From IMG/VR virus record IMGVR_UViG_3300030098_005649: 64,000 nt of DNA; one strand, given 5' to 3'. Position 1 is the first letter of the stretch. Every line of letters begins with the position of its first letter. A model generated the notes under the pieces. It did no database searches. It saw nothing but the letters and a program-made list of their open reading frames with translations, and had not been told where the DNA came from. Source of the stretch: a virus (Duplodnaviria; Caudoviricetes). Of this stretch, positions 1-64,000 are shown piece by piece. A program made the position numbers and the translations under genes.

Positions 1-67
1 TAAGGATACCACAAAATCTACAACAGATATTGATAAAGTTTGATGATGTAAATCGAGGTTATTAGAT

Positions 68-3000
68 ATGATAAATCTAAAGAGTATTGATAAACGAGTA
101 CAAAATACTTTACTTGAAAAACAACGACAATTATCAGAACACAATCCAATTGGTGGTGGTAATATTTTTTCTCGTTCTGTTTGGTCAAGAGTATCTTGTT
201 TGTTCAATGGTAAGTTGGTTAGTTTTTTTAGTGATAAAGACCCAACTAATATAAATGATTCAAAGTCAGATACGGTGTATGCATTTTATCGTCCTGATAA
301 TTCAAATCAAATATATAAGAGAAAAGTACGAACACTAACTGATGCAGTAAGTGGTGAAACTACACCAAAGTATGAGGAGTCAAGTGCATATTATAGACCA
401 ATACCAGGTGTGACAGCAATTTCAACTCAGTATGAAGGTGGGTTGAAATCTTTTCGTAAAACAGATTTGAGTTTTATTGTTTGGACATATGATGATATAG
501 CTTTTATGCAAAATTCTTTTATGGCAATAGGAAATTATGTTCTATTAGAATATGGTTGGAATGGGGATATAAATGATACTGCAGGATTCTCTAAACCATT
601 TTTACTTGAAAAACTATTGGGAGAAAATCCATCAATAACAAGTCCACTTAATTTGTTCAACGATGTATTACAAAACTATGCTAGTTATGCACTTGAAATG
701 GAAGGGAATCAAGATGTAATTATGGGTAGAGTTAGTAATTTTGAATATACTACTCGAGCAGATGGTGGATTTGATTGTAGTGTTTCATTGACTTCTTCTG
801 GTGCACAATTATTGAAAACTGAATTACCAGATATAGAAACGATAGAGTTTGTTAGTGGTGAAAATAAAGATGCAAATAAATTTGATTTAGAAGCTGCAAA
901 ATCTGTTGTTACTAATGTAAAAACTTTGATGAACTCACTACCCGAACAATTTGACAAGTTTTATGTTGATGTTATTGCAAAATATTCAAACAAGAAGTTA
1001 TTAACAAATGCAGATGGAAGTCAAGGATTTCTTAGTCTTATAGGGGATTTGGTAAGTTTGAACATAGGAATGGATGATACTTCATTATCAACATTGATGA
1101 ATGACTTTACAGATAATATGTCGTGGCACACTTTATTTCACGATGAGAAATATACTAAAGACGGTGAAACAGAAGAAATAAAAAAGGTATGTGTACCACA
1201 AATATATGCACTACACCATACATATAATGTTAGACAGACAGGAAATAATTCTTACGGAGTTGGTTCTTTGAAATTATCAGAACAAGATGGTACAAGTGAT
1301 GGACTCGGTATGCACTATTATGTTACATTGGGGTGGTTTGAAGATAATGTCCTAAATGGTGCATTGGGTGCATTGAATAGTAAAGGAAATTCAATTTATA
1401 AATTTAGGTCTACTGAAAGGTTTAGTCCTGAGTTTATAAAAGAACTTGGACTAGCAGAAAATCCTGACGGATTATATCAAGATTATTTAAAAGTCACAAG
1501 TGGTAATCACAATATATCTGATGATTGGATGCCATCTGTTACGATATCAAATAATCCATTTCTAACCACAATGAGACCATTTGTTGGAAAGAATTTTACT
1601 TCTGATTCTTCAAAGTATTGTTTTATATTACCTGGTCAAAATTTTGTAAATAGTGGAGATATTAAGAGCGGAACTATGAGATATAATGGTACTGTAAGTC
1701 AAGTTAGAGCTATGGATGCACATTTGAAATATATAAATGAAGTTTTTCCATCATTTGCAGTTCAAACTGGATTAGAAAATAACACACCCACATATGATTA
1801 TTCACGAGGATATTATAGAAATATTTTAGTTCACATTGAATTGTTGAGAGATGCAGTTTCAAATTCTAAAACAGTTGAAGATGTGTATAAAAATATTTTT
1901 AAAAATTTGAATCACGACTATGGTGATTTTTGGGACTTGAGTGTTGTACAAGACCCAATTGAACAAGGTAAAATTACCGTTATGGATAGAAATGTAACAC
2001 ACTTGAAAATAAAACAAAGTCAAGATTCAGATACATATTATAGTGATTTATATTCCACTCCAAATAGATTATCGACAGATGATTCTCCAGAACCTGGTGA
2101 AGTTTATTTTTTCAACATATGGGAAGATAATAGTATAGTGAAAGATTATAAGGTTACTTCAAAGATTCCTGATGAGTTTAAAGTAGCTATGGCATATTCT
2201 GGTAGAGATCCAGACGCACATAATCTTGGTCAAGATAAATATTCTCTATTGGGTAGAATAATAAATCAACAAAGTCAAGATTATGTTGAAGAAAAGATTG
2301 GTGATATAAATAAAGAAGAGTTTGAAGGAATACTAACAGACTTGGAACAAGGTATGTATACATCAGAAGCTATAAATAAATTCAAATCAACTGGTAATAT
2401 TGGTATTTTAATTCCATCAGGTGAGAAAGAAATATTTTTGCCAGTATCATATAATCCAAATAGTAGTGAAAAAAATGGATTCAATGGTGGTAGAGGATTG
2501 ATGACAATAACAGAATTACTTGGTAAGAAAGCTCTAATAGATGGTTCTTCTACAACAGTAGTTCATAATGGTAAAAGAGGTCAGAGGAATGATGACTTTC
2601 AATCCTATATAGCTGCAGCTGCAATTTCACCAAAAATATTAGTGGATATAGCAATAGAAAAAATAAAAAAATACTATAAAGATAAATTTCAAGAAGTTGA
2701 TGATAAAGAGGATAAAGATGAACCTGTAGATGCTTCAAGACCAGTAATTGATATAGCTCTAATCAAAGATATTGGGAATCAAAATGGAGTATTGAAATTG
2801 AGTGATGATGACGATGCATTAGGTGAAGCACTAACAAGTGCTGGGTTTAGTGATACAGATATCCAAAGTTATACAGATAATACAGGTGATGAGGGAAGTA
2901 CTAATGAGATTCAAACTAAAATTTATAGTCATAATATTGGTGGGATGAATCCTATACTTAGAGGGTTATATAAAAGTTTATTGACTTCTACGAGTACGAG

Positions 3001-4069
3001 TAAGTTTCCTAACATACCCATAGAAGTAGAAATAACTATAGATGGGGTTTCAGGAATTGAACCAGGTGATTCTTTTCAAGTTGGTTATTTACAAGAAGAG
3101 TATCTAAAATATACTTTGTTTCAATCTATAGATGTTAGTCACGATGTAAGTAATACTGGTTGGTACACAACAATAAAAGGTATAATGAGAATCAATCGTC
3201 AAGCTATGGGATTATTCTTACCTGATACTGTAAAAGAAGTCAAACCACCCACTGCTTTTTCTGGAACAACAACTTCAACTCCATCGGAAACATATACGAT
3301 ACCAACAGGAATTCCACCAGTACCAAAGAGAAAGAAAACCAAAATTGGGGATGAACCTGAGATAAAACCACCTGCTCATTTACAAGAAATTGAAATAAAC
3401 ACAACTGCAATTGATGAAACTTCACAGGTCATCATACCTAAAAGAAGAAAAGAACCAGACTTTAAGTGGTTTGAAGATATTACTGGAGCAAAAGTATTAG
3501 AAGACCAAGAAGAAGATGATGACCAAATACCTCTTTTTGGTGGAGTTGGAAGTGGAGTTTATCCACTTGGTACTGTAAATGTATCTAATGGAATGAATTA
3601 TACATTGAAAAAGGATGGTAGTAAGATTCCACCACGAACACAACCAAAACTAAAAAAAATCATACCATTGAAAAATCAATTTTATAGTACTGGTACTCTT
3701 TCTGTTGATGCTGGAGATGAGTATACAAATAAAACTCCACCACCTGAAGCAATAGGAAACATTTTCTTGTTCGAGAAATTTCGTAGAGAATCAAATCCAT
3801 CAGGTCTTCAAAGTAGAGTATTTAGAATTCAAGATGAGTTGGCAAGTAACTATCCAAAGTATAAGAGTGAGTGGGTTGTTATGAAGAAAGTTCGTGGTAA
3901 AGTATTCCCATCAGGTTGGGGAGATTCAATCTCATCGGATATGTTGAGTTTGAACAAAATGTTTTATTTCAAGAACAGACAAGTTTTTCGTGATTATGCA
4001 AAACTACACGGATATAGATTGGAAGAAGGTTCTAAGATAAGTATGAATACAGAACAGGTGGTGAGATAA
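68..4069 (+). CDS. probable baseplate hub / tail-associated structural protein with long Pro/Thr-rich C-terminal extension
   Basis: 1333 aa ORF; N-terminal PGVTAISTQY...VLLEYGW and later VEITIDGVSGIEPGDSFQV...VSHDVS..GWYTTIKG resemble hub-type proteins of large myoviruses (pattern recognition only). Confidence 0.5.
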   Translation: MINLKSIDKRVQNTLLEKQRQLSEHNPIGGGNIFSRSVWSRVSCLFNGKLVSFFSDKDPTNINDSKSDTVYAFYRPDNSNQIYKRKVRTLTDAVSGETTPKYEESSAYYRPIPGVTAISTQYEGGLKSFRKTDLSFIVWTYDDIAFMQNSFMAIGNYVLLEYGWNGDINDTAGFSKPFLLEKLLGENPSITSPLNLFNDVLQNYASYALEMEGNQDVIMGRVSNFEYTTRADGGFDCSVSLTSSGAQLLKTELPDIETIEFVSGENKDANKFDLEAAKSVVTNVKTLMNSLPEQFDKFYVDVIAKYSNKKLLTNADGSQGFLSLIGDLVSLNIGMDDTSLSTLMNDFTDNMSWHTLFHDEKYTKDGETEEIKKVCVPQIYALHHTYNVRQTGNNSYGVGSLKLSEQDGTSDGLGMHYYVTLGWFEDNVLNGALGALNSKGNSIYKFRSTERFSPEFIKELGLAENPDGLYQDYLKVTSGNHNISDDWMPSVTISNNPFLTTMRPFVGKNFTSDSSKYCFILPGQNFVNSGDIKSGTMRYNGTVSQVRAMDAHLKYINEVFPSFAVQTGLENNTPTYDYSRGYYRNILVHIELLRDAVSNSKTVEDVYKNIFKNLNHDYGDFWDLSVVQDPIEQGKITVMDRNVTHLKIKQSQDSDTYYSDLYSTPNRLSTDDSPEPGEVYFFNIWEDNSIVKDYKVTSKIPDEFKVAMAYSGRDPDAHNLGQDKYSLLGRIINQQSQDYVEEKIGDINKEEFEGILTDLEQGMYTSEAINKFKSTGNIGILIPSGEKEIFLPVSYNPNSSEKNGFNGGRGLMTITELLGKKALIDGSSTTVVHNGKRGQRNDDFQSYIAAAAISPKILVDIAIEKIKKYYKDKFQEVDDKEDKDEPVDASRPVIDIALIKDIGNQNGVLKLSDDDDALGEALTSAGFSDTDIQSYTDNTGDEGSTNEIQTKIYSHNIGGMNPILRGLYKSLLTSTSTSKFPNIPIEVEITIDGVSGIEPGDSFQVGYLQEEYLKYTLFQSIDVSHDVSNTGWYTTIKGIMRINRQAMGLFLPDTVKEVKPPTAFSGTTTSTPSETYTIPTGIPPVPKRKKTKIGDEPEIKPPAHLQEIEINTTAIDETSQVIIPKRRKEPDFKWFEDITGAKVLEDQEEDDDQIPLFGGVGSGVYPLGTVNVSNGMNYTLKKDGSKIPPRTQPKLKKIIPLKNQFYSTGTLSVDAGDEYTNKTPPPEAIGNIFLFEKFRRESNPSGLQSRVFRIQDELASNYPKYKSEWVVMKKVRGKVFPSGWGDSISSDMLSLNKMFYFKNRQVFRDYAKLHGYRLEEGSKISMNTEQVVR

Positions 4070-4070
4070 G

Positions 4071-4893: not shown

Positions 4894-5589
4894 ATGATAC
4901 AAAATGTTTTAGATAAAGGTTTCATTGAAGTTGTGGATTCTCTTGGAGATGACCTAACAGTAGTAAATTCTGCTCGTGTATCATTCGGTAAAAGAAAAAA
5001 GAAGTGGGATAAATCGGATGAAAGGTTGGTTAGGTTTTTAGCAAAATATAAACACTATTCACCATTCAGACATTTACAAGTTCAATTTCACATCAAGGCA
5101 CCAGAGTTCGTTATGAGACAATGGTATAAGCATGTTGTGGGTATTGAGACATCTTCGAGTAGTTCTACGAAAGACCACGCTTGGAATGAGATTAGTGGTC
5201 GTTATGTTCCTGTTGAGGACTTTTACACGCCAGAAGTGTTTAGACAACAATCAGAAGACAACAAACAGGCAACAGAAGGAGCAGTAAAAGACCAAGATTC
5301 TGCAAAACATCATTGGGAACAGGCGATGTTTCACGCTAAAGAACAATATCAGAAGTTGTTGGATATGGGTGTTGGTAAAGAACAAGCAAGAGCTATCCTA
5401 CCATTGAACCAATACACCGAAGTATATTGGACAGCATCATTTCAGGCAGTAATGAACTTTATAGAACTAAGAAATGAGAAAACCTCACAATGGGAAATTC
5501 AAGAATATGCAAAAGTTCTGTTGGAGTTAATGCACGATACATTTCCTAAAATAACAGAAATATGGTCGGAGGCACATAACTGGAAATAA
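4894..5589 (+). CDS. thyX: FAD-dependent thymidylate synthase
   Basis: NSARVSF, SPFRH, QWYKH, WNEISGRY, NFIELR motifs. Confidence 0.95.
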   Translation: MIQNVLDKGFIEVVDSLGDDLTVVNSARVSFGKRKKKWDKSDERLVRFLAKYKHYSPFRHLQVQFHIKAPEFVMRQWYKHVVGIETSSSSSTKDHAWNEISGRYVPVEDFYTPEVFRQQSEDNKQATEGAVKDQDSAKHHWEQAMFHAKEQYQKLLDMGVGKEQARAILPLNQYTEVYWTASFQAVMNFIELRNEKTSQWEIQEYAKVLLELMHDTFPKITEIWSEAHNWK

Positions 5590-12260: not shown

Positions 12261-12655
12261 TGAAAACTCAACTACTATGTACTTTTGCTGCACCTGATCA
12301 GTTAGACCATATTCTGTTTCTAATTTCGGAATGTAGTGATGTTTTGTTTGGTAAAATATTTGTATTGGAAAATGTAAACAATCCAAATCAGTTGATGTGT
12401 ACATATAACATAGAACAAACTGGTGATTACATTACTGATATGAGAGATACTATTTCATTACATAGAAAGAAACAGACCAATACATTGTACACAATCAATG
12501 CGATAAATTGTATAATCAAAGAATTAAACAATGGGGTACTTGATAAAAGATATGTTATTCCTTGGGATAATTATCAAAATTCTTTATTGCTAAATAAGGG
12601 ACAAGACTCTTATCAAATCATAAAAACAAAAATACACACCGTACATAATTTATAA
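12260..12655 (+). CDS. conserved phage hypothetical protein
   Basis: 131 aa ORF coupled to the previous stop; MKTQLLCTF...LHRKKQTNTLYTINAIN. Confidence 0.6.
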   Translation: MKTQLLCTFAAPDQLDHILFLISECSDVLFGKIFVLENVNNPNQLMCTYNIEQTGDYITDMRDTISLHRKKQTNTLYTINAINCIIKELNNGVLDKRYVIPWDNYQNSLLLNKGQDSYQIIKTKIHTVHNL

Positions 12656-12823
12656 TCGTTTGAGATCTGACCGTCATATATATTAAGGATGGTCAAACAA
12701 AATAGGTTATACGAAAAGTTTTTTCGATTAATAATATTTTCCGTGATATATATTATTACAAATCAGGTTACTACTTGATTGGTAATTAACAATTAAACAA
12801 TAACACTAAATTAGGAGTAAATA
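12656..12823 (+). promoter_or_regulatory. structured leader of the SSB gene: three hairpins, then an A/U-rich unstructured stretch and the RBS
   Basis: stems 12668-75/12688-95, 12712-17/12721-26 and 12755-66/12775-86; AGGAG RBS before ATG 12824. Confidence 0.5.
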
Positions 12824-17360: not shown

Positions 17361-19370
17361 ATGAGTAAATTTCAGTTATCAGATAATTTTATAAATAAGT
17401 ACAAGAGGAAAAAAGCTCCTTTTGGTTTTAATGGATTAGGTGAGTTGGTTTATATGAGAACCTACTCAAGAATCAAGGACAATGGCAAAAACGAAAGATG
17501 GTGGGAAACAGTACAACGAGTTGTAGAGGGAACTTACAACATGCAAATGAATTGGATTGAATCACATCAATTAGGGTGGAATCCCTGGCAAGCACAGAGG
17601 TCAGCACAAGATATGTATGACCGTATTTTCAATATGAAGTTCTTACCGCCAGGTCGTGGTTTGTGGGCAATGGGAACACCAATCACAGAGGAAAAAGGAC
17701 TATATGCCGCCCTAAATAATTGTGCCTTTGTATCAACAAAAACAATAAAAGAAGACTATGCCAAACCTTTTTGTTTCCTTATGGATGCAAGTATGTTGGG
17801 TGTTGGTGTTGGGTTCGATACAAAAGGTGCTGGAGAGATAGTAGTCAAAGGTATAAACAAGGATAGAGATGTTCAGACATTTCAAATACCTGATACTCGT
17901 GAGGGTTGGGTTGAGTCACTAAAGTTACTATTAGAAAGTTACTTTCACGGACAGGCACCAATGGAGTTTGACTACTCAATAATAAGACCAGCTGGTGTAC
18001 CAATAAAAGGTTTTGGTGGAGTTAGTTCAGGACCAGAACCACTAAAAGAAGTACACGAAGATATAAGAAAAGTACTTGAAAAGAATAGTGGAGAACCAAT
18101 CTCAATCACTACAATTGTTGATATTATGAATCTTATCGGTAAATGTGTAGTGGCTGGTAATGTTAGAAGAACGGCTGAGATTGTATTTGGAGACCCACAT
18201 TCAGAAGAATATTTAGATTTGAAAAATTATAAAGTAAATCCACATAGAGAACAATATGGATGGACAAGTAATAACTCCATATTTGCAGAGTTGGGTATGG
18301 ATTATACAGAAGCTGCAAAAAGAATTGCAGACAATGGAGAACCAGGATTTGCTTGGTTAGAAAATATGAGACAATATTCTCGTATGAAAAATGGTGGAGA
18401 CAATAAAGACCATAGAGTAATGGGTGGTAATCCTTGTTTGGAACAATCATTAGAATCATACGAATTGTGTTGTTTGGTAGAAACATTTCCTGAAAATCAC
18501 GATGATTTTGAGGATTATGCGAGAACACTAAAATATGCATACTTGTATGCAAAAACAGTAACACTTGGTAGAACTCATTGGAGTGATACAAATCGAGTTA
18601 TGTTGAGAAATAGGAGAATCGGTTGTAGTGTAAGTGGTGTTGCTCAGTTTATAACAAATAGAGGTTTAGATGAACTGAAAGAATGGTTGAATGGTGGATT
18701 TGATGTTATCCAACAATGGGATAAACAATATTCAGATTGGATGGCAGTTCCACGATCTATCAAGACCACATCGGTCAAACCATCAGGAACAGTTTCATTA
18801 TTAGCAGGAGCGACTCCAGGATTACATTACCCTGAGAGTCGTTTTTACATTAGGAGAATAAGAGTTTCAAAACATTCGGAACTATTAGAACCTATGAAAA
18901 AAGCAGGTTACAAAGTAGAACCAGCATTTGGTTCAGAAGACACAACTATGGTTGTCGAAGTACCAGTAGATGTCGGTGAGGGGATTAGAACAGCGGCTGA
19001 ACTTTCGATTTGGGAACAATTCAGTTTAGCCGCTTTTCTTCAACGACATTGGGCAGACAACCAAGTAAGTTGTACGGTTACATTCAATCCAGAAACGGAG
19101 ACAGACCAAATTGCTCCGTGTTTGAATTATTATCAGTATCACCTAAAGGGTATTAGTTTATTACCAAGACACGATTATGGGGCTTATCCTCAAATGCCAT
19201 ATGAAGGTATTGATGAGAAAACCTATGAGAAAGAAGTAAAGAAATTAGGTAAACTATCCTTTGGTGTGATAAAGAATGAAGAGGCAGAAGTAGATAAATT
19301 TTGTAACAACGATAGTTGTGAAATCATTCCAACCACTGGTGATAATGATGACCAAGATTATGCAAATTAG
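17361..19370 (+). CDS. nrdJ: class II (adenosylcobalamin-dependent) ribonucleotide reductase, monomeric type
   Basis: PPGRGLW, ALNNCAF, GGNPCLEQSL, TSVKPSGTVS, C-terminal FCNNDSC cysteine pair. Confidence 0.95.
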   Translation: MSKFQLSDNFINKYKRKKAPFGFNGLGELVYMRTYSRIKDNGKNERWWETVQRVVEGTYNMQMNWIESHQLGWNPWQAQRSAQDMYDRIFNMKFLPPGRGLWAMGTPITEEKGLYAALNNCAFVSTKTIKEDYAKPFCFLMDASMLGVGVGFDTKGAGEIVVKGINKDRDVQTFQIPDTREGWVESLKLLLESYFHGQAPMEFDYSIIRPAGVPIKGFGGVSSGPEPLKEVHEDIRKVLEKNSGEPISITTIVDIMNLIGKCVVAGNVRRTAEIVFGDPHSEEYLDLKNYKVNPHREQYGWTSNNSIFAELGMDYTEAAKRIADNGEPGFAWLENMRQYSRMKNGGDNKDHRVMGGNPCLEQSLESYELCCLVETFPENHDDFEDYARTLKYAYLYAKTVTLGRTHWSDTNRVMLRNRRIGCSVSGVAQFITNRGLDELKEWLNGGFDVIQQWDKQYSDWMAVPRSIKTTSVKPSGTVSLLAGATPGLHYPESRFYIRRIRVSKHSELLEPMKKAGYKVEPAFGSEDTTMVVEVPVDVGEGIRTAAELSIWEQFSLAAFLQRHWADNQVSCTVTFNPETETDQIAPCLNYYQYHLKGISLLPRHDYGAYPQMPYEGIDEKTYEKEVKKLGKLSFGVIKNEEAEVDKFCNNDSCEIIPTTGDNDDQDYAN

Positions 19371-19420: not shown

Positions 19421-19450
19421 AATTTCAAAACAACAATAGGAGTGATTACT

Positions 19451-22204
19451 ATGAACTATCGTAATCTAATCTCTATTCTTGCAATATCAGTAGGACTTGT
19501 TTATGGACAAGCCGTTACTGGTTTTGTTGGGGATGGAGAAAAACCACTTGTTGGAGCGAATGTAATCGTTGAGGGTACAGAACTCGGTGGAGTAACAGAC
19601 GAAAGTGGAAAATTCGTCATCGAAACTGGATCTGGTACTTTTGACATTACTGCTTCATACATCGGTTATGTTGCCAAAACTCAATCAGTTGAGATTGGTG
19701 ATATAGTTGGAAGTGTCAGTTTTGACTTAGAAACTGATGTGGTTGCTCTCACAGCACTTGAAGTTCTTGCTTCTCGTGCAGATGAGACTACACCTGTTGC
19801 TTATACTACGGTTAGTAAAGAAGAAATGGAAGTTCGTCTTGGTTCACAAGATATTCCAATGATTCTAAACACAACACCAAGTGTATATGCAACTCAACAA
19901 GGTGGAGGTGCGGGAGATGCCCGTATTAATGTTCGTGGATTCAACCAACGAAATGTCGCAGTAATGATAAACGGAGTTCCCCAAAACGATATGGAGAACG
20001 GATGGGTTTATTGGTCTAATTGGGATGGAGTAGGAGATGCTACTTCCTCAATTCAGATGCAACGAGGTCTATCAGCCGTGAATCTTGCTACACCATCAAT
20101 TGGTGGAACGATGAACATTATCACCGACCCAGCTGCTCACGAAAAAGGTGGGAAGTTCAAACAAGAAGTCGGTGAGGGTGGATTTCTAAAATCTACCTTG
20201 AATTATAACTCAGGTCTAATAAATGATAAGTTGGCAATTAGTGGTACAATTGTTCGTAAAACTGGTGACGGTTTGATTGACGGTACTTGGACAGATGCTT
20301 GGGCTTATTATTTAGGTACATCATATGCTGTATCAGATAAACAGAGATTCGAGTTATATGCAATCGGTGCTCCACAAAGACACGGACAGAACCTATACAA
20401 ACAGAACATAGCTACTTATTCTCAAGAGTTGGCTGGAAGTATCGATGGATACAATGATTCAGCTTATGTTGAGGGAGAGAAGTTTGAAACTGAAGCTGGT
20501 AGGTTCTTCAATCAGAATTGGGCACCTGTAGACCCATCATACAAAGGCCAACAATATTGGTATATGTATGGTGCGAGAACTACAGACAGGTACAATCCAA
20601 ATCTGTTGAATGAAAGAGAAAACTTCTTTCATAAACCACTTGTAAATCTAAACCATTTCTATGATATAAATGATGATATGAGATTATCTTCAGTATTATA
20701 TTGGAGTGGTGGTTCAGGTGGTGGTACTGGTACTTATGGAAGTGTCAGTAGAAAACCTGCAGTCGAAGGAGAACCTTGGTATGCAAGTTCACCTTGGATG
20801 TGGGATTGGAATGCTGAGATTGAACAGAACTCATCTAATGTAGATTCTGCTTGGTCTGATGTTGAAAATCGTTCAACAGGTATTCTTCGTAACTCAATCA
20901 ATCGTCAGAACACATATGGTTTGATTTCTAAATTGAACTATGATGTATCAGACGAACTTGAAGTTCAAGTTGGTATCGATTGGAGAACTGCTGGTATTGA
21001 ACACGCTCGTGAGGTTCGTGATTTATTAGGTGGAGACTACTATGTAAATTTCGCCGATGATAACGCACCTGATGGTAAAGTAGTTCGTTTAGGTGATATT
21101 ATCGCCTATCACAACGAAACAACTGTAAATTGGTTTGGTGCTTTCTTACAAGGTAGTTATACTGGTGAGAAACTAAACCTTTATGGTATGGGTGGTGTAT
21201 CCACTATTGGATATACTTACGAAGACCATTTTGCTCTAAATGTAGATGAAGATGGAAACAAAATTGATAATTTTGTTGAAGCTCCATCTATCACAACCTT
21301 TCAAGTAAAGGGTGGTGCTAGATATAATCTTGACGACAGATTATCAGCATTTGCTAATTTAGGGTATGTTCAAAAACCACCAATCTTAGATAATGTGATT
21401 GACTATGATGGAAATGTATCTACAAATCCAGATAATGAGAAATTCATATCTAATGAAATCGGTGGAGAATACAGAAGTGATAAAGTTGCTATCAAGGGTA
21501 GTTATTATAACACTCAATGGAAAGATAGAAACCTTACAAAATCTGTAACAACAGGACAAGGTGATTCAGGTGACACAGACATCATTTATCTAACTGGTGT
21601 AGACCAAAGTCATAGTGGTTTCGAGATAGAGTCTAAAGTTGCTCTACACGAAATGGTAGACTTAGATGTCGCTGTTAGTATCGGAGATTGGTACTTTGAC
21701 GGAGATGCTAAAGGTGACTATACTTCAATGGAATACAATGAAAATAATGAGATTATCGGACAAACATCTACTGAGTATGAATATGCTCTCGCTAATCTAA
21801 AAGTTGGTGATATGCCACAAACATCTTATGTTGGTGGACTTACAGTAAAACCAATTAAAGGTTTGAGTGTACAAGGTCTTTATAGATGGTACGACAATCA
21901 CTATGCTGATTGGAGTCCTGATTCTCGTGAGGTTGAAGGTGATGCAGATAGAGAACAAGTATGGAAAACTCCATCTTATGGTAAGTTAGACTTACATCTA
22001 TCTTATAAATTACCTGAAATTGCAGGTCTTGATATGACTATTCACGGTCATTTATTCAATGCACTTGATGAGGTATTTATTCAAGATGCAGTAGACAATA
22101 GTAAATACAATGGGTATGGTGATAAACTTCACTTAGCTCATAATGCCGAAGTATTTCTTGGAACACCAAGAAGTTTCAACTTAGGACTATCTGTCAATTT
22201 CTAA
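19451..22204 (+). CDS. full-length TonB-dependent outer-membrane receptor with signal peptide and carboxypeptidase-regulatory-like N-domain
   Basis: start moved to ATG 19451 (RBS spacing); signal peptide MNYRNLISILAISVGLVYG; plug motif RINVRGFNQRNVAVMINGVPQNDMENGWVYWSNW; C-terminal LGLSVNF beta signal. Confidence 0.92.
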   Translation: MNYRNLISILAISVGLVYGQAVTGFVGDGEKPLVGANVIVEGTELGGVTDESGKFVIETGSGTFDITASYIGYVAKTQSVEIGDIVGSVSFDLETDVVALTALEVLASRADETTPVAYTTVSKEEMEVRLGSQDIPMILNTTPSVYATQQGGGAGDARINVRGFNQRNVAVMINGVPQNDMENGWVYWSNWDGVGDATSSIQMQRGLSAVNLATPSIGGTMNIITDPAAHEKGGKFKQEVGEGGFLKSTLNYNSGLINDKLAISGTIVRKTGDGLIDGTWTDAWAYYLGTSYAVSDKQRFELYAIGAPQRHGQNLYKQNIATYSQELAGSIDGYNDSAYVEGEKFETEAGRFFNQNWAPVDPSYKGQQYWYMYGARTTDRYNPNLLNERENFFHKPLVNLNHFYDINDDMRLSSVLYWSGGSGGGTGTYGSVSRKPAVEGEPWYASSPWMWDWNAEIEQNSSNVDSAWSDVENRSTGILRNSINRQNTYGLISKLNYDVSDELEVQVGIDWRTAGIEHAREVRDLLGGDYYVNFADDNAPDGKVVRLGDIIAYHNETTVNWFGAFLQGSYTGEKLNLYGMGGVSTIGYTYEDHFALNVDEDGNKIDNFVEAPSITTFQVKGGARYNLDDRLSAFANLGYVQKPPILDNVIDYDGNVSTNPDNEKFISNEIGGEYRSDKVAIKGSYYNTQWKDRNLTKSVTTGQGDSGDTDIIYLTGVDQSHSGFEIESKVALHEMVDLDVAVSIGDWYFDGDAKGDYTSMEYNENNEIIGQTSTEYEYALANLKVGDMPQTSYVGGLTVKPIKGLSVQGLYRWYDNHYADWSPDSREVEGDADREQVWKTPSYGKLDLHLSYKLPEIAGLDMTIHGHLFNALDEVFIQDAVDNSKYNGYGDKLHLAHNAEVFLGTPRSFNLGLSVNF

Positions 22205-22842: not shown

Positions 22843-23199
22843 ATGAATACAAGAAAACATCTAAAAGAAGGTACTTACACTTATTGGGTAAATAAAAGAA
22901 GTGGTACTATCCAGCATGTGGGAGTTGAATACAATAAGTATTTCAAGAACTTCAAATTGACTATGAGTACTGTAAATTTACCATACGAAAGAATGTATTT
23001 CACAAAAGGTAGTGATATGAATGGTGTGGATAGATTCTTGAAAAACTATGAGTTTATTTGTGAGAATCCAGACAATGATTTTTTTGTAAATGTCTTGGCT
23101 AACAAGAAACTAAAGAGTGAGTTTACTTGGGGTAGAAAAACCAATGGTAGACTTGGTATCACTAAAGATGAATATTTTTCAAAACTAAACATAAAATAA
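22843..23199 (+). CDS. hypothetical protein (early gene)
   Basis: start moved to ATG 22843 behind the AAGGA RBS. Confidence 0.6.
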   Translation: MNTRKHLKEGTYTYWVNKRSGTIQHVGVEYNKYFKNFKLTMSTVNLPYERMYFTKGSDMNGVDRFLKNYEFICENPDNDFFVNVLANKKLKSEFTWGRKTNGRLGITKDEYFSKLNIK

Positions 23200-23331: not shown

Positions 23332-23425
23332 ATGTAAACAATGTAAAACAGAGTTAGATGGGATAATGATTTTTTATCCTGAACTCTGTTTATTTTGTGT
23401 TATAAAAAAAGAAAATAATGCTTGA
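23306..23425 (+). CDS. small CxxC...CxxC protein
   Basis: MKKTKTNRKCKQCKTELDGIMIFYPELCLFCVIKKENNA; 3' part of track ORF 23222-23425. Confidence 0.45.
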   Translation: MKKTKTNRKCKQCKTELDGIMIFYPELCLFCVIKKENNA

Positions 23426-23451
23426 CACATATAGTAAAAGTTGTGTATATT
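23422..23451 (+). promoter_or_regulatory. sigma70-type promoter of the nuclease/methyltransferase pair
   Basis: TTGACA-18 nt-TATATT. Confidence 0.75.
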
Positions 23452-23483
23452 ATACTATGAATAATAAAGGAAAAACAAACAAA

Positions 23484-24080
23484 ATGAAGACAACAACTAA
23501 CAATCTAATAAACAATTTTTCTTATGAAGACTTGGCTCACGCTTTATATCTAAAAGGTGAGAGGGATGGTGTTCATAAAATTACAGACAAAACTCAATGG
23601 AGAGAGTTTGTTATCGCTGACAAATTAGGTCATAAGGCTTTTGATAAGATTTCTGCTGGTAAAGGTAGTGATAAATATGGTGCAGATGCTTATGAGGCTA
23701 ATGGACAAACTGCAGAATATAAGAGTAAGTCTATCAATGACAAAGAGGTTCGTAACCTTACTCGTCAAGTTAGAAACCATAATACAGGTTTGAGATTTTC
23801 AGCACTCAAAGTTCCTGGTGTTTACAATGGGGCATATACACAAGATGCAATTGATGCTTATTCTAAACATAATCACTATTTTGGTGTGTTTTGGAAAGAG
23901 AGATGTGTTTTGATTATCAAACCAACTACTGATTATGTTATCAGTACACTTACTGAAAACAACAACAATCGTAAAGATGGGGCGACAACAAACCTAAATA
24001 GTGTTGTTGTGAACTTAGACGATGTTTCTAATTATGAAATTGCTTACAAAGACAATGATTGGTTCGAGGAGAATGAATGA
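23484..24080 (+). CDS. putative type II restriction endonuclease (PD-(D/E)XK fold)
   Basis: WREFVIA...GADAY...AEYKS catalytic spacing; overlaps a downstream DNA MTase. Confidence 0.6.
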   Translation: MKTTTNNLINNFSYEDLAHALYLKGERDGVHKITDKTQWREFVIADKLGHKAFDKISAGKGSDKYGADAYEANGQTAEYKSKSINDKEVRNLTRQVRNHNTGLRFSALKVPGVYNGAYTQDAIDAYSKHNHYFGVFWKERCVLIIKPTTDYVISTLTENNNNRKDGATTNLNSVVVNLDDVSNYEIAYKDNDWFEENE

Positions 24081-24841
24081 AAAGTTATGCTATAGTAAAT
24101 GAGGATTGTTTAGACTTACTAAGAGGTCTTGATGATAATTCTGTTGATTTGGTTCTAACAGACCCACCATACTATATTGGATATGATGGTGGTAAGGGTT
24201 GGGACTCGGCTTGGGACACAGAACAAGATTATTTAGATTGGTGTAAGTTATGGACAGCGGAATGTGTTAGGGTATTGAAACCAAATAGATGTATGTATGT
24301 TTGGGGTACTACCAAAACAGATACATTCTTGAGATATAAATTAGATGTTCTCAACTCTTTTGATGATATTTATTATCAGAGTTGGATAATATGGTCGTAT
24401 GATTGGGGTGGTAGAACAAAGAAAAACTTTGCCAGAAAACACGAGGATTTATTGATGTATTCTAAAGGTAAAGAATTTATGTTCAACAAAGATGATGTTA
24501 GAATACCATATATTTTGAAAAAGAGTGTTAGAAAAGGTAAAGAACTAAATCCACTTGGTAAAATACCAACGGATGTTTGGCCAAAGAATAATCATACCAC
24601 ATCAAAAGAATATGCTGGATGGCATCCAACTCAGAAACCACTTGAGTTATTAGAAAGAATTATCAAGGCTCACACAAATAAAGGTGATGTTGTTTTGGAT
24701 TGTTTTAGTGGTAGTGGTAGTACTGCAATTGCATCCATAAATACCAACAGAGAATTTATTGGTTGTGAGTTAGATGAGGAATATTTTACAAAATCAATGG
24801 AAAGAATAAACGAACTAACAGGTGTAAATAGGTTTATATAA
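24077..24841 (+). CDS. beta-class N6-adenine/N4-cytosine DNA methyltransferase
   Basis: LTDPPY (motif IV) before HPTQKP...VLDCFSGSGST (motif I). Confidence 0.93.
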   Translation: MKSYAIVNEDCLDLLRGLDDNSVDLVLTDPPYYIGYDGGKGWDSAWDTEQDYLDWCKLWTAECVRVLKPNRCMYVWGTTKTDTFLRYKLDVLNSFDDIYYQSWIIWSYDWGGRTKKNFARKHEDLLMYSKGKEFMFNKDDVRIPYILKKSVRKGKELNPLGKIPTDVWPKNNHTTSKEYAGWHPTQKPLELLERIIKAHTNKGDVVLDCFSGSGSTAIASINTNREFIGCELDEEYFTKSMERINELTGVNRFI

Positions 24842-32959: not shown

Positions 32960-34035
32960 CAAGTGTAGATTACCAAGTCCTAAGTAAGTTCGTTGATATC
33001 GATGAACGAGATTTGGAGTTTCACAAGATAACAAATGCAATAAAAGAACACGATATCGAACACGGTATCGAAGTTATATTTGATTATTATCGGAGACACG
33101 GATTTCCACATTATAAAATTCGTGAAGAAGAGAAACACGACCACATAAGAAAACTACAAAAGTTCGATGTGGATACTATTTTTATTGATAATCAAATCAT
33201 ACAGACAATGCATTGTTTGAGATTGGCTTGGACATACTTCCCACATTTTTGGGAAATAAGATGTGGGAGTGCCAAACAATCACCAATGGAAATATTCAAT
33301 GATGACGAGAAGTTCAAAAAGACTATTCGTAAATGTTGGAATTGGAGTGCAAAACATTACAAAGGTGAGGAGAATCATCCAAACAATAAGTTTACAGAGA
33401 ACAGACTTAGACAATCACTAAAAATTTATACAGGAACTCAATCAGTTAGTAACTTTAGACCAACTGCTGCAAAACTTATATATGAGAAGTTTGGTGGTGA
33501 AGTAGTTTGGGATATGAGTTGTGGTTGGGGTGGTAGATTATTAGGATTCTTATCTGCATCAAATACCAAACATTACATTGGTACTGAACCATCTACGAGA
33601 ACTTTTGATGGTCTGTTGAAGATGAAAAAAGATTTTTCGTATTTTGGGAAAAAAGTTGATATTTATAAACAAGGAAGTGAGGAATTCAAACCAGAAAAAA
33701 AATCACTCGATTTATGTTTCACTTCCCCACCTTATTTCGATACTGAAAAATATAGCTTGGAAAAGTCACAAAGTTTTATTAAATTCCCTACAGAGAATGA
33801 ATGGGTAAATGGTTTTTTGAGAAAGACTATTCAAAATTGTTATGATGGACTAAAAAAAGATAAATATATGTTGATAAATATTGCAAATACTCCTAAGTAT
33901 GATTTTATAGAAAAGGAGACTATTGGTATATCAAAAGAACTTGGTTTTACACAAGAAGACACATTACAATTGACATTATCAAGTGTAATGGGTGCGGGTT
34001 ATAAATATGAACCCATATTTGTTTTTAAAAAATGA
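32956..34035 (+). CDS. third SPPY-type DNA methyltransferase
   Basis: SNFRPTAAK, WDMSCGWGGRLLG, FTSPPYFDTEKY, EPIFVFKK. Confidence 0.85.
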   Translation: MTSVDYQVLSKFVDIDERDLEFHKITNAIKEHDIEHGIEVIFDYYRRHGFPHYKIREEEKHDHIRKLQKFDVDTIFIDNQIIQTMHCLRLAWTYFPHFWEIRCGSAKQSPMEIFNDDEKFKKTIRKCWNWSAKHYKGEENHPNNKFTENRLRQSLKIYTGTQSVSNFRPTAAKLIYEKFGGEVVWDMSCGWGGRLLGFLSASNTKHYIGTEPSTRTFDGLLKMKKDFSYFGKKVDIYKQGSEEFKPEKKSLDLCFTSPPYFDTEKYSLEKSQSFIKFPTENEWVNGFLRKTIQNCYDGLKKDKYMLINIANTPKYDFIEKETIGISKELGFTQEDTLQLTLSSVMGAGYKYEPIFVFKK

Positions 34036-35300: not shown

Positions 35301-35302
35301 GG

Positions 35303-40959: not shown

Positions 40960-42183
40960 ATGAAAACAAAATTTTTAGATTTAGGTAAACAACCAATTGC
41001 AAATGATTTCATACCAGGTGAAGAATATGAAAGTGAAAGATATTCATTTGATTTGGGAGTCGTGTATGATGATGAAACTCATTTGGTTTCGTTGAGTGAG
41101 TTTGTCCCACCAGAAAAAATGTTCAATGAAAATTATGTGTATCATTCATCATATTCTCAGACTATGAGAGACCATTTCAAAAACCTAGCGGATACTTGTA
41201 GTGAGAGATTCAATCCACTTACTGTTTTGGAGATTGGTAGTAATGATGGTGTGTTTCTAAATCATTGGGGTAACGATTATACTATTGGAGTTGAACCTTG
41301 TAGTAATTTTGCTGAGATTACAGAAGAATTAGGATACAAAACATATCCTAAGTTTTGGAACACAGAATTATCAAACGAAATAAAAGAAAGTTTTGAGAAT
41401 GGTTTCGACCTAATTTCTGCATCAAATTGTATTTGTCACATCCAAGATTTAGATGATTGTTTTACTGCAGTACATAATTTATTATCCGATAGAGGAGTAT
41501 TCGTATTTGAAGACCCATCACTAATTGAAACAATGAAGAGAAACTCATACGACCAATTCTATGATGAACACGCTCATATATTTTCAGTTACTGCATTAGA
41601 AAAACTATTGGAAAGAAATGGTTTATTTTTATTTGATGTAGAACCTTTGAGTGTTCACGGTGGTTCTAATAGAATATTTGCCAGTAAAACAGAAACAGAA
41701 AAAACTGATAGAATGAAAGAGATTCTGAAAGATGAATCAGACTATGGTTTGGATAAACTTTCTACATATGAAGAGTTTGCAAAAAGGGTTGAGAAGTCAA
41801 AAGAAGATTTATTCAACATACTAAAACAATTCAATGAAAGAGGTTACAAAGTAATTTCATATGGTGCGACATCTAAGTCTACTACGGTTTTCAACTATTG
41901 TGGGATTGATGATTATCTAATACAATACATTACTGATACCACAGAAGATAAACAAGGTAAGTATTCACCTGGTGTAAAGTTACCCGTTGTCTCACCCGAA
42001 GAGGGATTTGATGACGAGGTTGATGTTGCATTTCTTGGGGCTTGGAATTTTGAAAAAGAGATACGAGAAAAAGAATCAGATTATGAAAAGAGTGGTGGAC
42101 TATGGATAACGCATGTACCAGAAGTTAGAGTACTTGGTCACAAAGACTTTGTACACGAACCTTGGGTAGAATTAGATGAGTAA
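40960..42183 (+). CDS. NDP-hexose C-methyltransferase (SAM-dependent)
   Basis: LDLGKQPIAN, LEIGSNDG, YDQFYDEHAH, VHGGS, GATSK, AWNF. Confidence 0.88.
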   Translation: MKTKFLDLGKQPIANDFIPGEEYESERYSFDLGVVYDDETHLVSLSEFVPPEKMFNENYVYHSSYSQTMRDHFKNLADTCSERFNPLTVLEIGSNDGVFLNHWGNDYTIGVEPCSNFAEITEELGYKTYPKFWNTELSNEIKESFENGFDLISASNCICHIQDLDDCFTAVHNLLSDRGVFVFEDPSLIETMKRNSYDQFYDEHAHIFSVTALEKLLERNGLFLFDVEPLSVHGGSNRIFASKTETEKTDRMKEILKDESDYGLDKLSTYEEFAKRVEKSKEDLFNILKQFNERGYKVISYGATSKSTTVFNYCGIDDYLIQYITDTTEDKQGKYSPGVKLPVVSPEEGFDDEVDVAFLGAWNFEKEIREKESDYEKSGGLWITHVPEVRVLGHKDFVHEPWVELDE

Positions 42184-52590: not shown

Positions 52591-53425
52591 AAATCTTGTA
52601 TGGTTGAATGGTATAGTACCAACAGACCCTATGATTAGAAGAAAATACGGGTTTGATAACATAGATTGGATTGAGTTATCAAAGTATTATTGGAGTAAGT
52701 ATTGTGAGATACACGATGGTATAGATTTATATCATTATGAAAAAGTTGGTCCACCATATACGAATACAAATAAACATAGAGTACCTTGGACACGATGGTT
52801 TGACCAAATAAAATTTCTTGAAAGACCAGAGAACTCTCATTACGAAAAAGTGTACTCAGTTGATGCAAGTACATTGATAAATTTGAAAGAATGTCCTAAT
52901 ATATTTACACGAACCGAAAGAGAACCCGACAATGACTTTTGGGGTACTCGTGACTTTGCAAATCTTGGGTGGACATATGATGGTATTGTTGGTTATGAAG
53001 ACATATGTAATTACAATAATATAAAATATGACCACACGAGATACTTTGCTGCTGGGCATGTCTTGTATGATGTGAAGAAAATGTTACCTATGTTGAAAAA
53101 ATTAGAGAAGTTTTACAACGATAATATGGAAGTAATACTTGAGAAACAAAATCACTCTGTTAGAAAAGGTACAGACCAAGTAGTATTCAATTGGTTAGTT
53201 CAATCAGAGGGAATCAAATATGACTTATCTTTATTGGATGTTAGGTATCAGGCAACACATTTCAAACGATATGAATGGGATAAGGCAGCAGATGGATACT
53301 TGAGACAAAATTATATATTATCTATTTCAGGTATGTCAAAGAAAGACGAAAGAGGTATTTTGATGAAAGAGTTACACGAGTTACTACTAAATCTTTATCC
53401 AGACTATATAGGAGCTGTAAAATGA
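52580..53425 (+). CDS. GT-A (GT8-like) glycosyltransferase
   Basis: VYSVDAST, YFAAG, TDQVVFN; resembles the next gene. Confidence 0.65.
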   Translation: MQNKNLVWLNGIVPTDPMIRRKYGFDNIDWIELSKYYWSKYCEIHDGIDLYHYEKVGPPYTNTNKHRVPWTRWFDQIKFLERPENSHYEKVYSVDASTLINLKECPNIFTRTEREPDNDFWGTRDFANLGWTYDGIVGYEDICNYNNIKYDHTRYFAAGHVLYDVKKMLPMLKKLEKFYNDNMEVILEKQNHSVRKGTDQVVFNWLVQSEGIKYDLSLLDVRYQATHFKRYEWDKAADGYLRQNYILSISGMSKKDERGILMKELHELLLNLYPDYIGAVK

Positions 53426-61274: not shown

Positions 61275-61275
61275 A

Positions 61276-63599: not shown

Positions 63600-63608
63600 T
63601 TTTTTTAC

Positions 63609-63647
63609 AAAAAGTGCTTGACTTATATACTATATTATGTGTATATT
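63609..63647 (+). promoter_or_regulatory. sigma70-type early promoter
   Basis: aaaaagtgc-TTGACT-18 nt-TATATT. Confidence 0.75.
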
Positions 63648-63673
63648 AGGGTATGATAAACAAGGAATATAAT

Positions 63674-63979
63674 ATGAATTTAGTTACCGAAGATAAAGTA
63701 GTCCTCAAGAGTGTGGGCTGTGTATTCGATAGAAAACAAGGTATTACCTATCCTATAATGACGGATGACACGATTGATTGGGATGGTGGTGTTGATGTGA
63801 TGGTCACGGATTGTGAGTGGTTTAGAGCCCTTTCTCCGAAAGATTTCACCATAGTAGAAAAGTATTTTACTGACGAGGAATTAGATATACGGGCTATGAT
63901 GGATAACAATTACTTGGAAACCTATTGTGAGGAGAATCCTGACTTCGTAGATGGGTTTGATAATTGGGATACTTTCTAA
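63674..63979 (+). CDS. small acidic early hypothetical protein
   Basis: start moved to ATG 63674 behind AAGGA. Confidence 0.6.
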   Translation: MNLVTEDKVVLKSVGCVFDRKQGITYPIMTDDTIDWDGGVDVMVTDCEWFRALSPKDFTIVEKYFTDEELDIRAMMDNNYLETYCEENPDFVDGFDNWDTF

Positions 63980-64000
63980 AAAAAGTGCTTGACTTTATCA
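63980..64000 (+). promoter_or_regulatory. start of another early promoter (cut off by the window end)
   Basis: aaaaagtgc-TTGACT at 63989. Confidence 0.6.

What the first reader, a model, noticed from the sequence alone, without database searches (positions are those of the whole stretch)
1..64000. Conditional purge of restriction sites: CTAG, CATG and GATC survive almost only in one flanking context, pointing to blanket short-motif methylation as a shield
Seen (by-eye scan): all 11 CTAG found (681, 1451, 4651, 9429, 13302, 16460, 21318, 41185, 44893, 47924, 56817) are GCTAG or CTAGC. All 12 CATG (5131, 11895, 17540, 22915, 25781, 26807, 27059, 32673, 37453, 42112, 46911, 53057) are GCATG or CATGC. 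Of 16 GATC, 13 are GGATC/GATCC (exceptions 12296, 12664, 18754). The purge shows in codon choice: His-Asp/Glu/Gly is written CAC-G.. and Asp-Gln is written GAC-CAA despite the AT-rich background. AGCT, TGCA and GGCC, which contain GC internally, are freely used; GCGC and CCGG were not found. Established: methylation on one strand usually blocks type II endonucleases, and dinucleotide-specific cytosine MTases exist (chlorovirus M.CviPI, GC; M.CviPII, CCD). Inference: the phage methylates the C of GC(W/H) and the first C of CC(H) (or a GGATC-type motif), so host CTAG-, CATG- and GATC-cutting sites are tolerated only where phage methylation overlaps them, and all other copies were selected away. 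That would be a combined genome-sculpting plus promiscuous-MTase anti-restriction system readable from sequence alone.
Basis: partly seen in the sequence, partly recalled or inferred. Interest (0 to 1): 0.92.

Follow-up and report, generated by a model that had tools for sequence, protein, structure and literature searches.

The report
Flank-conditional purge of restriction sites
An uncultured marine jumbo phage has lost almost every copy of seven 4-base restriction-type palindromes, keeping CTAG, CATG and GATC only where a G sits directly 5' of the site; the rule is real and actively selected, but relatives with no DNA methyltransferase gene follow it too, so its cause is still open.

Summary
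Observation confirmed and strengthened. In the window all 12 CTAG and all 13 CATG are GCTAG/CTAGC or GCATG/CATGC, as are 13 of 16 GATC. A codon-preserving shuffle expects 106, 102 and 108 unflanked copies; 0, 0 and 3 are seen. A 98.9%-identical strain adds 48 kb outside the window, and the rule holds there: 5/5, 11/11, 4/5.

The strongest new evidence is His-Val. It must contain either ACGT (absent) or CATG. All 13 His-Val are CAT-GTN preceded by a rare G-ending codon, and the dipeptide is 3-4-fold depleted. So the G flank is positively selected.

The same sparing runs through the whole phage clade, including records of 69-165 kb with no detectable DNA methyltransferase and no SPPY homologue. 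The SPPY proteins fold closest to tRNA amino-methyltransferases. GCCGG is not spared, AGCT is not freely used, and AGC/GCT is itself avoided.

Best reading (about 0.4): host 4-bp restriction needs two cuttable half-sites, and a 5' G disables one through a "not-G" outer-base requirement of the nucleases. Main rival (about 0.3): an unidentified modification at GpC/GpG steps. Probable host phylum: Marinimicrobia (SAR406).

Other first-stage notes of this scan recorded the TTAA/ACGT/GATC/CATG avoidance on this same genome, but not the flank rule.

The parts
1..64000 (.). Window-wide purge of ACGT, CCGG, GCGC, CATG, GATC, TTAA and CTAG. It is conditional for CTAG, CATG and GATC: only copies with a 5' G or a 3' C survive.
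   Evidence: CTAG sites: 681, 1451, 4651, 9429, 13302, 16460, 21318, 41185, 44078, 44893, 47924, 56817. CATG sites: 5131, 11895, 17540, 22915, 25781, 26807, 27059, 32673, 37453, 42112, 46911, 53057, 55223. GATC sites: 2207, 10179, 12296, 12664, 13220, 13244, 14317, 18754, 19629, 25007, 25235, 26051, 27212, 45815, 58110, 60356.
5128..5136 (+). Forced His-Val site: AAG CAT GTT
   Evidence: CAC-GTN would create the banned ACGT, so CAT-GTN is kept and the preceding codon ends in G.
22912..22920 (+). Forced His-Val site: CAG CAT GTG
25778..25786 (+). Forced His-Val site: GGG CAT GTA (in polB)
   Evidence: GGG is 7% of Gly codons.
26804..26812 (+). Forced His-Val site: GTG CAT GTC (in polB)
27056..27064 (+). 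Forced His-Val site: GTG CAT GTC (in polB)
37450..37458 (+). Forced His-Val site: TCG CAT GTC
   Evidence: TCG is 5% of Ser codons.
42109..42117 (+). Forced His-Val site: ACG CAT GTA
   Evidence: ACG is 6% of Thr codons.
53054..53062 (+). Forced His-Val site: GGG CAT GTC
12296..12299. GATC exception: TGATCA
12664..12667 (.). GATC exception: AGATCT, intergenic
18754..18757 (.). GATC exception: CGATCT
28154..29380 (+). SPPY_A, a class I SAM-dependent amino-methyltransferase-like protein. It carries motif I (DFSAGWGDR) and motif IV (FTSPPYF). Substrate unproven.
29359..30576 (+). SPPY_B, tandem paralogue of SPPY_A (51% identity)
32956..34035 (+). SPPY_C, distant paralogue (33-36% identity over the core)
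24077..24841 (+). DPPY beta-class DNA amino-methyltransferase (RsrI/MboIIA/CcrM-like)
23418..24080 (+). PvuII-fold restriction-endonuclease-like protein. Its stop overlaps the start of the DPPY methyltransferase gene.
   Evidence: Invariant D90, E100, K102.
19442..22204 (+). SusC-type TonB-dependent receptor gene. Used here as a host marker.
   Evidence: The nearest cellular homologues are Marinimicrobia.

Best explanation
The window belongs to an uncultured marine T4-like jumbo phage whose probable hosts are Marinimicrobia (SAR406). Long-term selection by host type II restriction has removed 4-bp palindromes through synonymous change, and even through amino-acid change.

For CTAG, CATG and GATC a copy is harmful only if both half-sites are cuttable. 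A G directly 5' of the site, on either strand, disables that half-site, so at most a repairable nick results and such copies are near neutral.

I commit to the disabling being a property of the restricting nucleases. They would read six base pairs with a 'not-G' outer position (H-CTAG-D, H-CATG-D, H-GATC-D type). This property would vary from host to host.

Shown: the purge, the flank rule, its positive selection, its clade-wide spread, and its independence from phage methyltransferase genes. Inferred: that nucleases are the agent, and that the outer-base discrimination is theirs.
For: The purge and the flank rule exceed Markov and codon-preserving nulls. They are replicated on 48 kb outside the window.

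All 13 His-Val are CAT-GTN preceded by G-ending, mostly rare codons. The product of the codon usages is about 1e-8 for the 8 in the window. His-Val occurs 8 times vs 26 expected, and 5 vs 20 in the outside stretch.

All five CTAG/CATG/GATC sites that differ between two 98.9%-identical strains are flanked ones.

The sparing is present without any detectable DNA methyltransferase in G002-G005 and in all sublineages.

Sparing behaves per palindrome and per lineage, as different host enzymes would:
- GATC is purged unconditionally in G003 and G004.
- CCGG is purged unconditionally in this phage but spared in G002, G004 and G005.
- ACGT in G002 follows a different flank rule, with only AACGTW kept.

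The host phylum is rich in restriction-modification-type methyltransferases: PF01555 in 60 of 81 genomes and PF00145 in 17 of 81. From my own knowledge, type IIP enzymes with degenerate outer bases exist, for example RGATCY, RCATGY and VCTCGAGB.
Against: The same 'G protects' rule holds for four or five different palindromes (CTAG, CATG, CCGG, GATC, partly GCGC). That asks several nucleases to share one outer-base exclusion, whereas a single modification at GpC/GpG steps would explain it at once.

I know of no characterised enzyme with H...D outer specificity on these cores.

The hosts and their enzymes are unknown. Host assignment rests on one auxiliary gene.
Confidence: 0.4

Rival explanations
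1. An unidentified base modification at 5'-GC-3' steps, with a second and variable one at 5'-GG-3'/5'-CC-3' steps, overlaps one half-site and blocks cleavage there. The enzyme could be phage- or host-encoded.
For: One cause would explain G-sparing of CTAG, CATG and CCGG in every clade member where they are purged. Sparing is limited to C- or G-starting palindromes: G-flanked TTAA and ACGT are not spared and are even more depleted. Phages of other hosts purge unconditionally (Mel-JY01 CTAG and GATC 0; cyanophage-like CATG, CCGG and GCGC 0), so the effect is not universal to such nucleases. GpC is an anomalous dinucleotide in this lineage.
Against: G001-G005 show no C5, N4/N6, D12, TGT/DpdA, QueC, thymidylate-synthase-like or TET/JBP gene, apart from this phage's own SPPY and DPPY genes. 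GCGC, which has internal GpC, is 0 vs 10 expected in G003. GCCGG is 0 vs about 9 in this phage. G-flanked CTTAAG is still purged, O/E 0.12. C5-methyltransferases are sporadic in the host phylum, 17 of 81 genomes. No gene family tracks GATC sparing.
Confidence: 0.3
2. The phage's own SPPY methyltransferases methylate C in GC(W/H) and the first C of CC(H), or GGATC. This shields the overlapping CTAG, CATG and GATC.
For: The phage lineage carries four SPPY paralogues, three in the window and one in G001, plus a DPPY enzyme. The TSPPY motif is typical of N4-cytosine enzymes (own knowledge). A GCW specificity would fit spared GCTAG and GCATG together with unspared GCCGG and GCGC.
Against: The flank rule occurs equally in relatives that lack these genes. 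Relatives that carry SPPY_A/C orthologues do not show stronger sparing. The structural neighbours are tRNA m2G/m6A enzymes, not DNA methyltransferases. Pfam scores are at the threshold: 24.8, 29.5 and 27.3 against a cut-off of 26.7. AGCT, which contains GCT, is depleted.
Confidence: 0.1
3. Self-avoidance. The purged words are targets of nucleases encoded by the phage itself, used to degrade host DNA, and its genome has shed their sites.
For: A PvuII-fold endonuclease gene sits in the window next to a methyltransferase gene.
Against: Only one such nuclease is found for seven purged words. It is absent from G002-G005, which also purge. It comes with its own methyltransferase, so no purge would be needed.
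Confidence: 0.04
4. There is no DNA-level selection. The flank pattern is a by-product of codon usage, dipeptide content or host-wide mutation bias.
For: Most survivors fall in a few codon pairs: GCT-AGN, CAT-GTN, GAT-CCN.
Against: Shuffles that preserve codons and proteins expect 100 or more unflanked copies of each word. Rare NNG codons are recruited specifically before CAT-GTN. Candidate host genomes show no such purge.
Confidence: 0.01

Closest known systems
Restriction-site (short palindrome) avoidance in phage genomes (own knowledge; surveyed for example in PMC4176335)
   Same: Strong depletion of 4-bp palindromes, achieved mainly by synonymous codon choice. It varies between related phages.
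   Different: Here the avoidance depends on one flanking base and reaches the protein level (His-Val depletion). Rare codons are recruited to create the tolerated context. I found no description of a flank-conditional purge.
Blocking of restriction by overlapping methylation, such as Dam/Dcm overlap effects, and the chlorovirus dinucleotide methyltransferases M.CviPI (GC) and M.CviPII (CCD) (own knowledge)
   Same: A mark laid on a short motif protects only those restriction sites that the motif overlaps. That gives exactly this kind of flank rule.
   Different: No C5-methyltransferase gene was found in the records of this phage lineage or its relatives. Relatives with no methyltransferase keep the rule. 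GC-containing GCGC and AGCT are not protected.
Type IIP endonucleases with degenerate outer bases: BstYI RGATCY, NspI RCATGY, Cfr10I RCCGGY, PspXI VCTCGAGB (own knowledge)
   Same: A 4-bp core is read together with a partly specified outer pair. Both half-sites are needed for a double-strand cut.
   Different: The required pattern here would be 'not G ... not C' (H...D). I know of no example of this for these cores.
R.PvuII with a beta-class methyltransferase partner
   Same: ORF 23418-24080 has the PvuII fold with a conserved D...ExK. It overlaps a beta-class methyltransferase gene.
   Different: The partner is a DPPY adenine-type enzyme, not an SPPF N4-cytosine one. The specificity is unknown. 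The pair is phage-borne.

Membership tests
Restriction-site avoidance driven by type II restriction | Short palindromes are depleted well beyond composition, Markov and codon-aware nulls | tested here: met
   The seven most depleted tetramers are all palindromes.
Restriction-site avoidance driven by type II restriction | Depletion is achieved through synonymous codon and codon-pair choice | tested here: met
   His+G is CAC in 89 of 99 cases. Asp+C is GAC in 94 of 107.
Restriction-site avoidance driven by type II restriction | Cognate restriction enzymes are present in the host | not testable with these tools
   The host is uncultured. Only methyltransferase family counts in the phylum are available.
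Blanket dinucleotide methylation shield (M.CviPI/M.CviPII-like) | A C5-cytosine methyltransferase gene is present in the genome | tested here: not met
   No PF00145 hit in G001-G005.
Blanket dinucleotide methylation shield (M.CviPI/M.CviPII-like) | The flank rule co-occurs with the candidate methyltransferase across relatives | tested here: not met
Blanket dinucleotide methylation shield (M.CviPI/M.CviPII-like) | Palindromes with internal GC escape depletion | tested here: inconclusive
   TGCA and GGCC are free. AGCT is 56 vs 128 expected. GCGC is 0 in the window and 0 vs 10 in G003.
Blanket dinucleotide methylation shield (M.CviPI/M.CviPII-like) | A modified base is present at GC/CC in virion DNA | not testable with these tools
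   The public runs that hold the phage are kept as contigs only.
N6/N4 DNA amino-methyltransferases (the SPPY proteins) | SAM-binding motif I and catalytic (S/D/N)PPY motif IV | tested here: met
   Invariant D192, S194, G196, W197, G198 and F268-T-S-P-P-Y-F274.
N6/N4 DNA amino-methyltransferases (the SPPY proteins) | Score above the Pfam gathering cut-off over the whole domain | tested here: inconclusive
   24.8, 29.5 and 27.3 bits against a cut-off of 26.7. Only the motif IV region aligns.
N6/N4 DNA amino-methyltransferases (the SPPY proteins) | The closest solved structures are DNA methyltransferases | tested here: not met
   The top matches are TrmN, Trm11 and Trm14 with Z 14-16. No DNA methyltransferase is in the top 50.
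PvuII-like restriction endonuclease (ORF 23418-24080) | PvuII fold with a PD-(D/E)XK catalytic triad | tested here: met
   Foldseek against 1ni0/1pvu: E about 1e-4, probability 1.0, TM 0.65. Invariant D90, E100, K102.
PvuII-like restriction endonuclease (ORF 23418-24080) | Sequence-specific cleavage blocked by the neighbouring methyltransferase | not testable with these tools
   Needs biochemistry.

The most novel reading that the evidence does not exclude
A whole clade of abundant marine jumbo phages, or their SAR406 hosts, carries an undescribed DNA modification. It would be made by no recognisable methyltransferase, deazaguanine or hydroxymethyl-pyrimidine enzyme, and it would mark GpC and GpG steps. 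The phage genomes would have been sculpted around it: every unshielded restriction site removed, and rare codons recruited to place the shield where a site cannot be avoided.
Probability: 0.25. Interest if true: 0.88.

Novelty: new variant of a known kind. Interest (0 to 1): 0.72.

Why it matters
Restriction-site avoidance is usually scored as presence or absence of a word. Here one flanking base separates lethal copies from neutral ones, cleanly enough to read from sequence alone: 0 of about 300 expected unflanked copies against 38 flanked survivors in 64 kb.

It also shows defence pressure reshaping protein sequence (His-Val loss) and codon choice (rare NNG codons).

Whichever cause is right, the pattern is a direct handle on something unknown in an uncultivated and globally abundant system. 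That unknown is either new nuclease specificities in SAR406 or a new context-specific DNA modification.

The rule could be used as a computational probe across viromes. The phage is present in marine metagenomes of at least six studies, so virion DNA for a methylome is obtainable.

Tried and rejected
- **Coding or codon-usage artefact.** Rejected by codon-preserving shuffles and the His-Val test.
- **Host-wide mutation bias.** 162 kb of one Marinimicrobia genome and 450 kb pooled from 77 others show no purge and no clear flank effect.
- **General property of 4-bp restriction.** The nearest cultured relative, Mel-JY01, and cyanophage-like contigs purge CTAG, GATC, CATG, CCGG and GCGC unconditionally.
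- **Longer protective motif.** Positions -5 to -2 and +2 to +5 show no preference. TGCA or AGCT overlap cannot explain the rule, because the -2 base is free.
- **Double-flanked sites as a special class.** Not significantly different from single-flanked sites.
- **Deazaguanine modification.** No TGT/DpdA and no QueC.
- **hmC, hmU or base J routes.** No thymidylate-synthase-like gene and no TET/JBP.
- **A gene family tracking GATC sparing.** None is present only in the window phage, G002 and G005.
- **Core unknown proteins of the clade.** No PHROG or Pfam lead.
- **A universal C5-methyltransferase in the host phylum.** Found in only 17 of 81 genomes.
- **Direct modification evidence from reads.** The runs that hold the phage are kept as contigs.
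- **Generalising G-sparing to 6-bp palindromes.** Only a weak effect at CTTAAG, and none for G-starting words.
- **Correlation of GpC depletion with SPPY genes.** Weak and confounded by phylogeny: mean rho(GC) 0.71 vs 0.84.

Full report
**What the window is.** The window has 33% G+C, strong G>C skew, and almost every gene on the + strand. It encodes:
- T4-type replication proteins: gp32-like, UvsX/RecA, a 5'-3' exonuclease, a DnaB-type helicase, family B polymerase, clamp and clamp loader.
- A class II ribonucleotide reductase.
- A SusC-type TonB-dependent receptor.
- A long block of glycosyltransferase and sugar-nucleotide genes.

No cultured phage is close. The best polymerase match is Microcystis phage Mel-JY01 at 45%. 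Hundreds of marine metagenomic contigs encode polymerases 53-66% identical. The phage itself is held by runs of six studies.

The receptor's nearest cellular homologues, at 55-66% identity, come almost only from Marinimicrobia (SAR406) genomes. I take that phylum as the probable host. This is an inference from one auxiliary gene.

**The observation.** Exact counting gives 12 CTAG, 13 CATG and 16 GATC. ACGT, CCGG and GCGC are absent, and TTAA occurs 52 times. One CTAG (44078) and one CATG (55223) were missed, and both obey the rule.

The seven most depleted of all 256 tetramers are palindromes. Every CTAG and CATG, and 13 of 16 GATC, has a G directly 5' or a C directly 3'. Against local context frequencies this gives p=1.6e-10, 6e-10 and 3e-5.

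I shuffled synonymous codons within each gene 300 times, which keeps proteins and codon usage:

| Word | Flanked, seen / expected | Unflanked, seen / expected |
|---|---|---|
| CTAG | 12 / 34 | 0 / 106 |
| CATG | 13 / 30 | 0 / 102 |
| GATC | 13 / 64 | 3 / 108 |

TTAA behaves the other way: G/C-flanked copies are the more depleted (7 of 128 against 45 of 307). One claim fails. AGCT is not freely used, at 56 seen against 128 expected.

**Independent replication.** An IMG/VR record, G001, is 98.9% identical to window 2976-64000 and continues 48.4 kb beyond the window's end. In that unseen stretch CTAG is flanked in 5 of 5 cases, CATG in 11 of 11 and GATC in 4 of 5. ACGT and CCGG are again 0.

Over the shared 61 kb the two strains differ at 628 positions. 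The five CTAG, CATG or GATC sites present in only one strain are all flanked ones. So turnover happens only within the tolerated class.

**Evidence that the flank is selected.** His-Val is a forced conflict. CAC-GTN makes ACGT and CAT-GTN makes CATG. All eight His-Val in the window are CAT-GTN. All eight are preceded by a codon ending in G: AAG, CAG, GGG, GTG, GTG, TCG, ACG, GGG. From the window's own codon usage the joint chance is about 1e-8.

The unseen 48 kb adds five more, preceded by CCG, CTG, AAG, CCG and TCG. His-Val itself occurs 8 times against 26 expected, and 5 against 20 in the outside stretch. The phage therefore avoids the dipeptide. Where it cannot, it pays for a rare codon to place a G in front of CATG.

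Asp-Pro shows the graded version:
- GAT-CCN, which gives GATCC, is used 11 times against 28 for GAC-CCN.
- GAT-CAN is used 2 times of 54.
- GAT-CTN is used 0 times of 13.

**The clade.** I fetched four relatives in full as held: G002 (165 kb, estimated 79% complete), G003 (69 kb), G004 (96 kb) and G005 (94 kb). All show the same sparing.

| Record | Word | Unflanked (seen/expected or O/E) | Flanked (O/E) |
|---|---|---|---|
| G003 | CTAG | 0 / 132 | 1.75; all 57 CTAG flanked |
| G002 | CTAG | 0.19 | 1.11 |
| G002 | GATC | 0.05 | 0.50 |

- G004 and G005 spare GCTAG, GCATG and GCCGG.
- GATC is purged without sparing in G003 (1 copy in 69 kb) and in G004.
- In this phage CCGG is purged without sparing: 0 against about 9 flanked copies expected in 112 kb.

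Grouping the 22-kb loci by sublineage shows sparing everywhere in the clade and none in more distant phages. Controls purge unconditionally. Mel-JY01 has no CTAG and no GATC in 50 kb. Cyanophage-like contigs have no CATG, CCGG or GCGC. Other flank rules exist too. In G002, ACGT survives only as AACGTW, and TGATC is purged whatever the other flank is.

The window has a DPPY beta-class methyltransferase and three SPPY paralogues. G001 holds a fourth. Several results go against these genes as the cause:
- G002-G005 have no homologue of any of them. A profile built from 14 family members, including all four paralogues, finds nothing at E<10, and there is no credible [DNS]PP[YFW] protein.
- G002-G005 have no PF01555, PF00145 or PF02086 hit.
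- Relatives that do carry SPPY_A or SPPY_C orthologues show no stronger sparing.
- A model of SPPY_A (pLDDT 81) finds TrmN, Trm11 and Trm14 as best solved neighbours (Z 14-16), with no DNA methyltransferase in the top 50.
- Its Pfam scores sit at the cut-off, and only motif IV aligns.

The family is very common in marine metagenomes, with 3037 homologues, all unnamed. So these proteins are amino-methyltransferases of unproven substrate, and the flank rule does not depend on them.

**Other modification routes.** No TGT/DpdA or QueC was found, which argues against deazaguanine. No thymidylate-synthase-like hydroxymethylase or TET/JBP was found in G001-G005. No gene family is confined to the three genomes that spare GGATC. 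Clade-core proteins of unknown function gave no lead.

In 81 genomes of the host phylum, C5-methyltransferases are sporadic (17 genomes). N6/N4 enzymes are common and often multiple (60 genomes). That fits a restriction-rich host population and does not point to a universal orphan enzyme. Candidate host DNA shows no comparable purge.

**An added anomaly.** GpC is suppressed in this lineage, with rho 0.50 against 0.84 on average in relatives.
- NGC/(NGC+NGT) is 0.01-0.025, against 0.2 for other NNC/(NNC+NNT) pairs.
- G|C across codon junctions has O/E 0.22.

The effect is strongest for AG|C (0.02-0.10) and xG|CT. A|GCN is halved. Ala GCT falls to 33%, against 56-66% in relatives. So the trinucleotide AGC/GCT is avoided in all frames on both strands. 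This makes the recruitment of G before CATG more striking. It also argues against GpC being a cost-free shield. Its cause is unknown.

**Mechanism.** Both live explanations share one logic. A double-strand cut needs two competent half-sites, and a 5' G spoils one.

I favour, at about 0.4, outer-base discrimination by the host nucleases. My reasons are that sparing needs no phage gene, that it is switched on or off per palindrome and per lineage, and that other flank rules coexist.

The main rival, at about 0.3, is an unidentified modification at GpC/GpG steps. It explains with one cause why G protects four or five different C- or G-starting words but not A- or T-starting ones. It lacks a gene, however, and is contradicted by unspared GCGC and GCCGG.

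**Limits.**
- The relatives are incomplete.
- Host assignment is indirect.
- No methylome could be read.
- Markov expectations differ from codon-aware ones for some words. CATG and TTAA baselines are about 0.45 and 0.68 of the first-order Markov value.

Noticed in passing
window 1-64000: AGC/GCT trinucleotide (GpC) avoidance specific to this lineage. rho(GC) is 0.50. The AGC codon occurs 4 times among 1318 Ser. NGC/(NGC+NGT) is 0.01-0.025. The AG|C junction has O/E 0.02-0.10. Ala GCT is 33% against 56-66% in relatives. Cause unknown.
   Followed up: partly
window 23418-24841: A PvuII-fold endonuclease gene (invariant D90, E100, K102) overlaps a DPPY beta-class methyltransferase gene just upstream of polB. 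This is a phage-borne restriction-modification-like pair. It is absent from G002-G005, but homologues lie on metagenomic contigs of 170-177 kb.
   Followed up: partly
window 19442-22204: A SusC-type TonB-dependent receptor is 80-90% identical across the clade, more conserved than polB at 62-63%. Its nearest cellular homologues are Marinimicrobia (SAR406), which suggests the host phylum.
   Followed up: partly
window 1-64000 and L081-L083 (G001 1-48440): The His-Val dipeptide is depleted 3-4-fold (8 vs 26 expected; 5 vs 20). In the window, Val after His-CAT uses the rare codon GTC in 4 of 8 cases.
   Followed up: yes
window 1-64000: TTCGAA is absent: 0 of 107 TCGA sites, with about 14 expected. 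TTAA survivors favour A/T flanks. GTTAA/TTAAC is 7 seen vs 128 expected.
   Followed up: no
G002 (L087-L095): ACGT survives only as AACGTW. CACGT, GACGT and TACGTA are purged. TGATC is purged whatever the other flank is. So other flank-conditional purges exist in the clade.
   Followed up: partly
clade pool (window, G001-G005, 20 loci): Six-base palindromes purged beyond their 4-bp cores (O/E): CTTAAG 0.04, GACGTC 0, GGTACC 0.06, GTCGAC 0.08, CGTACG 0.06, CCCGGG 0, TGCGCA 0.11, GAATTC 0.26. CAGCTG is enriched at 2.1.
   Followed up: no
L081:2045-3571 (-): A fourth SPPY-family paralogue (509-aa open frame) lies in the same phage lineage outside the window.
   Followed up: partly
window 34053-36122: A clade-conserved block follows the replication genes: DUF1599 ('nucleotide modification associated domain 1'), a PD-(D/E)XK nuclease, and a YspA/cpYpsA-type SLOG protein. 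Two GT4 glycosyltransferase genes lie downstream.
   Followed up: no
window 28154-29380: The SPPY_A family has more than 3000 homologues in marine metagenomes (about 70% identity for the nearest). None carries an informative name (at most 'hypothetical protein').
   Followed up: no
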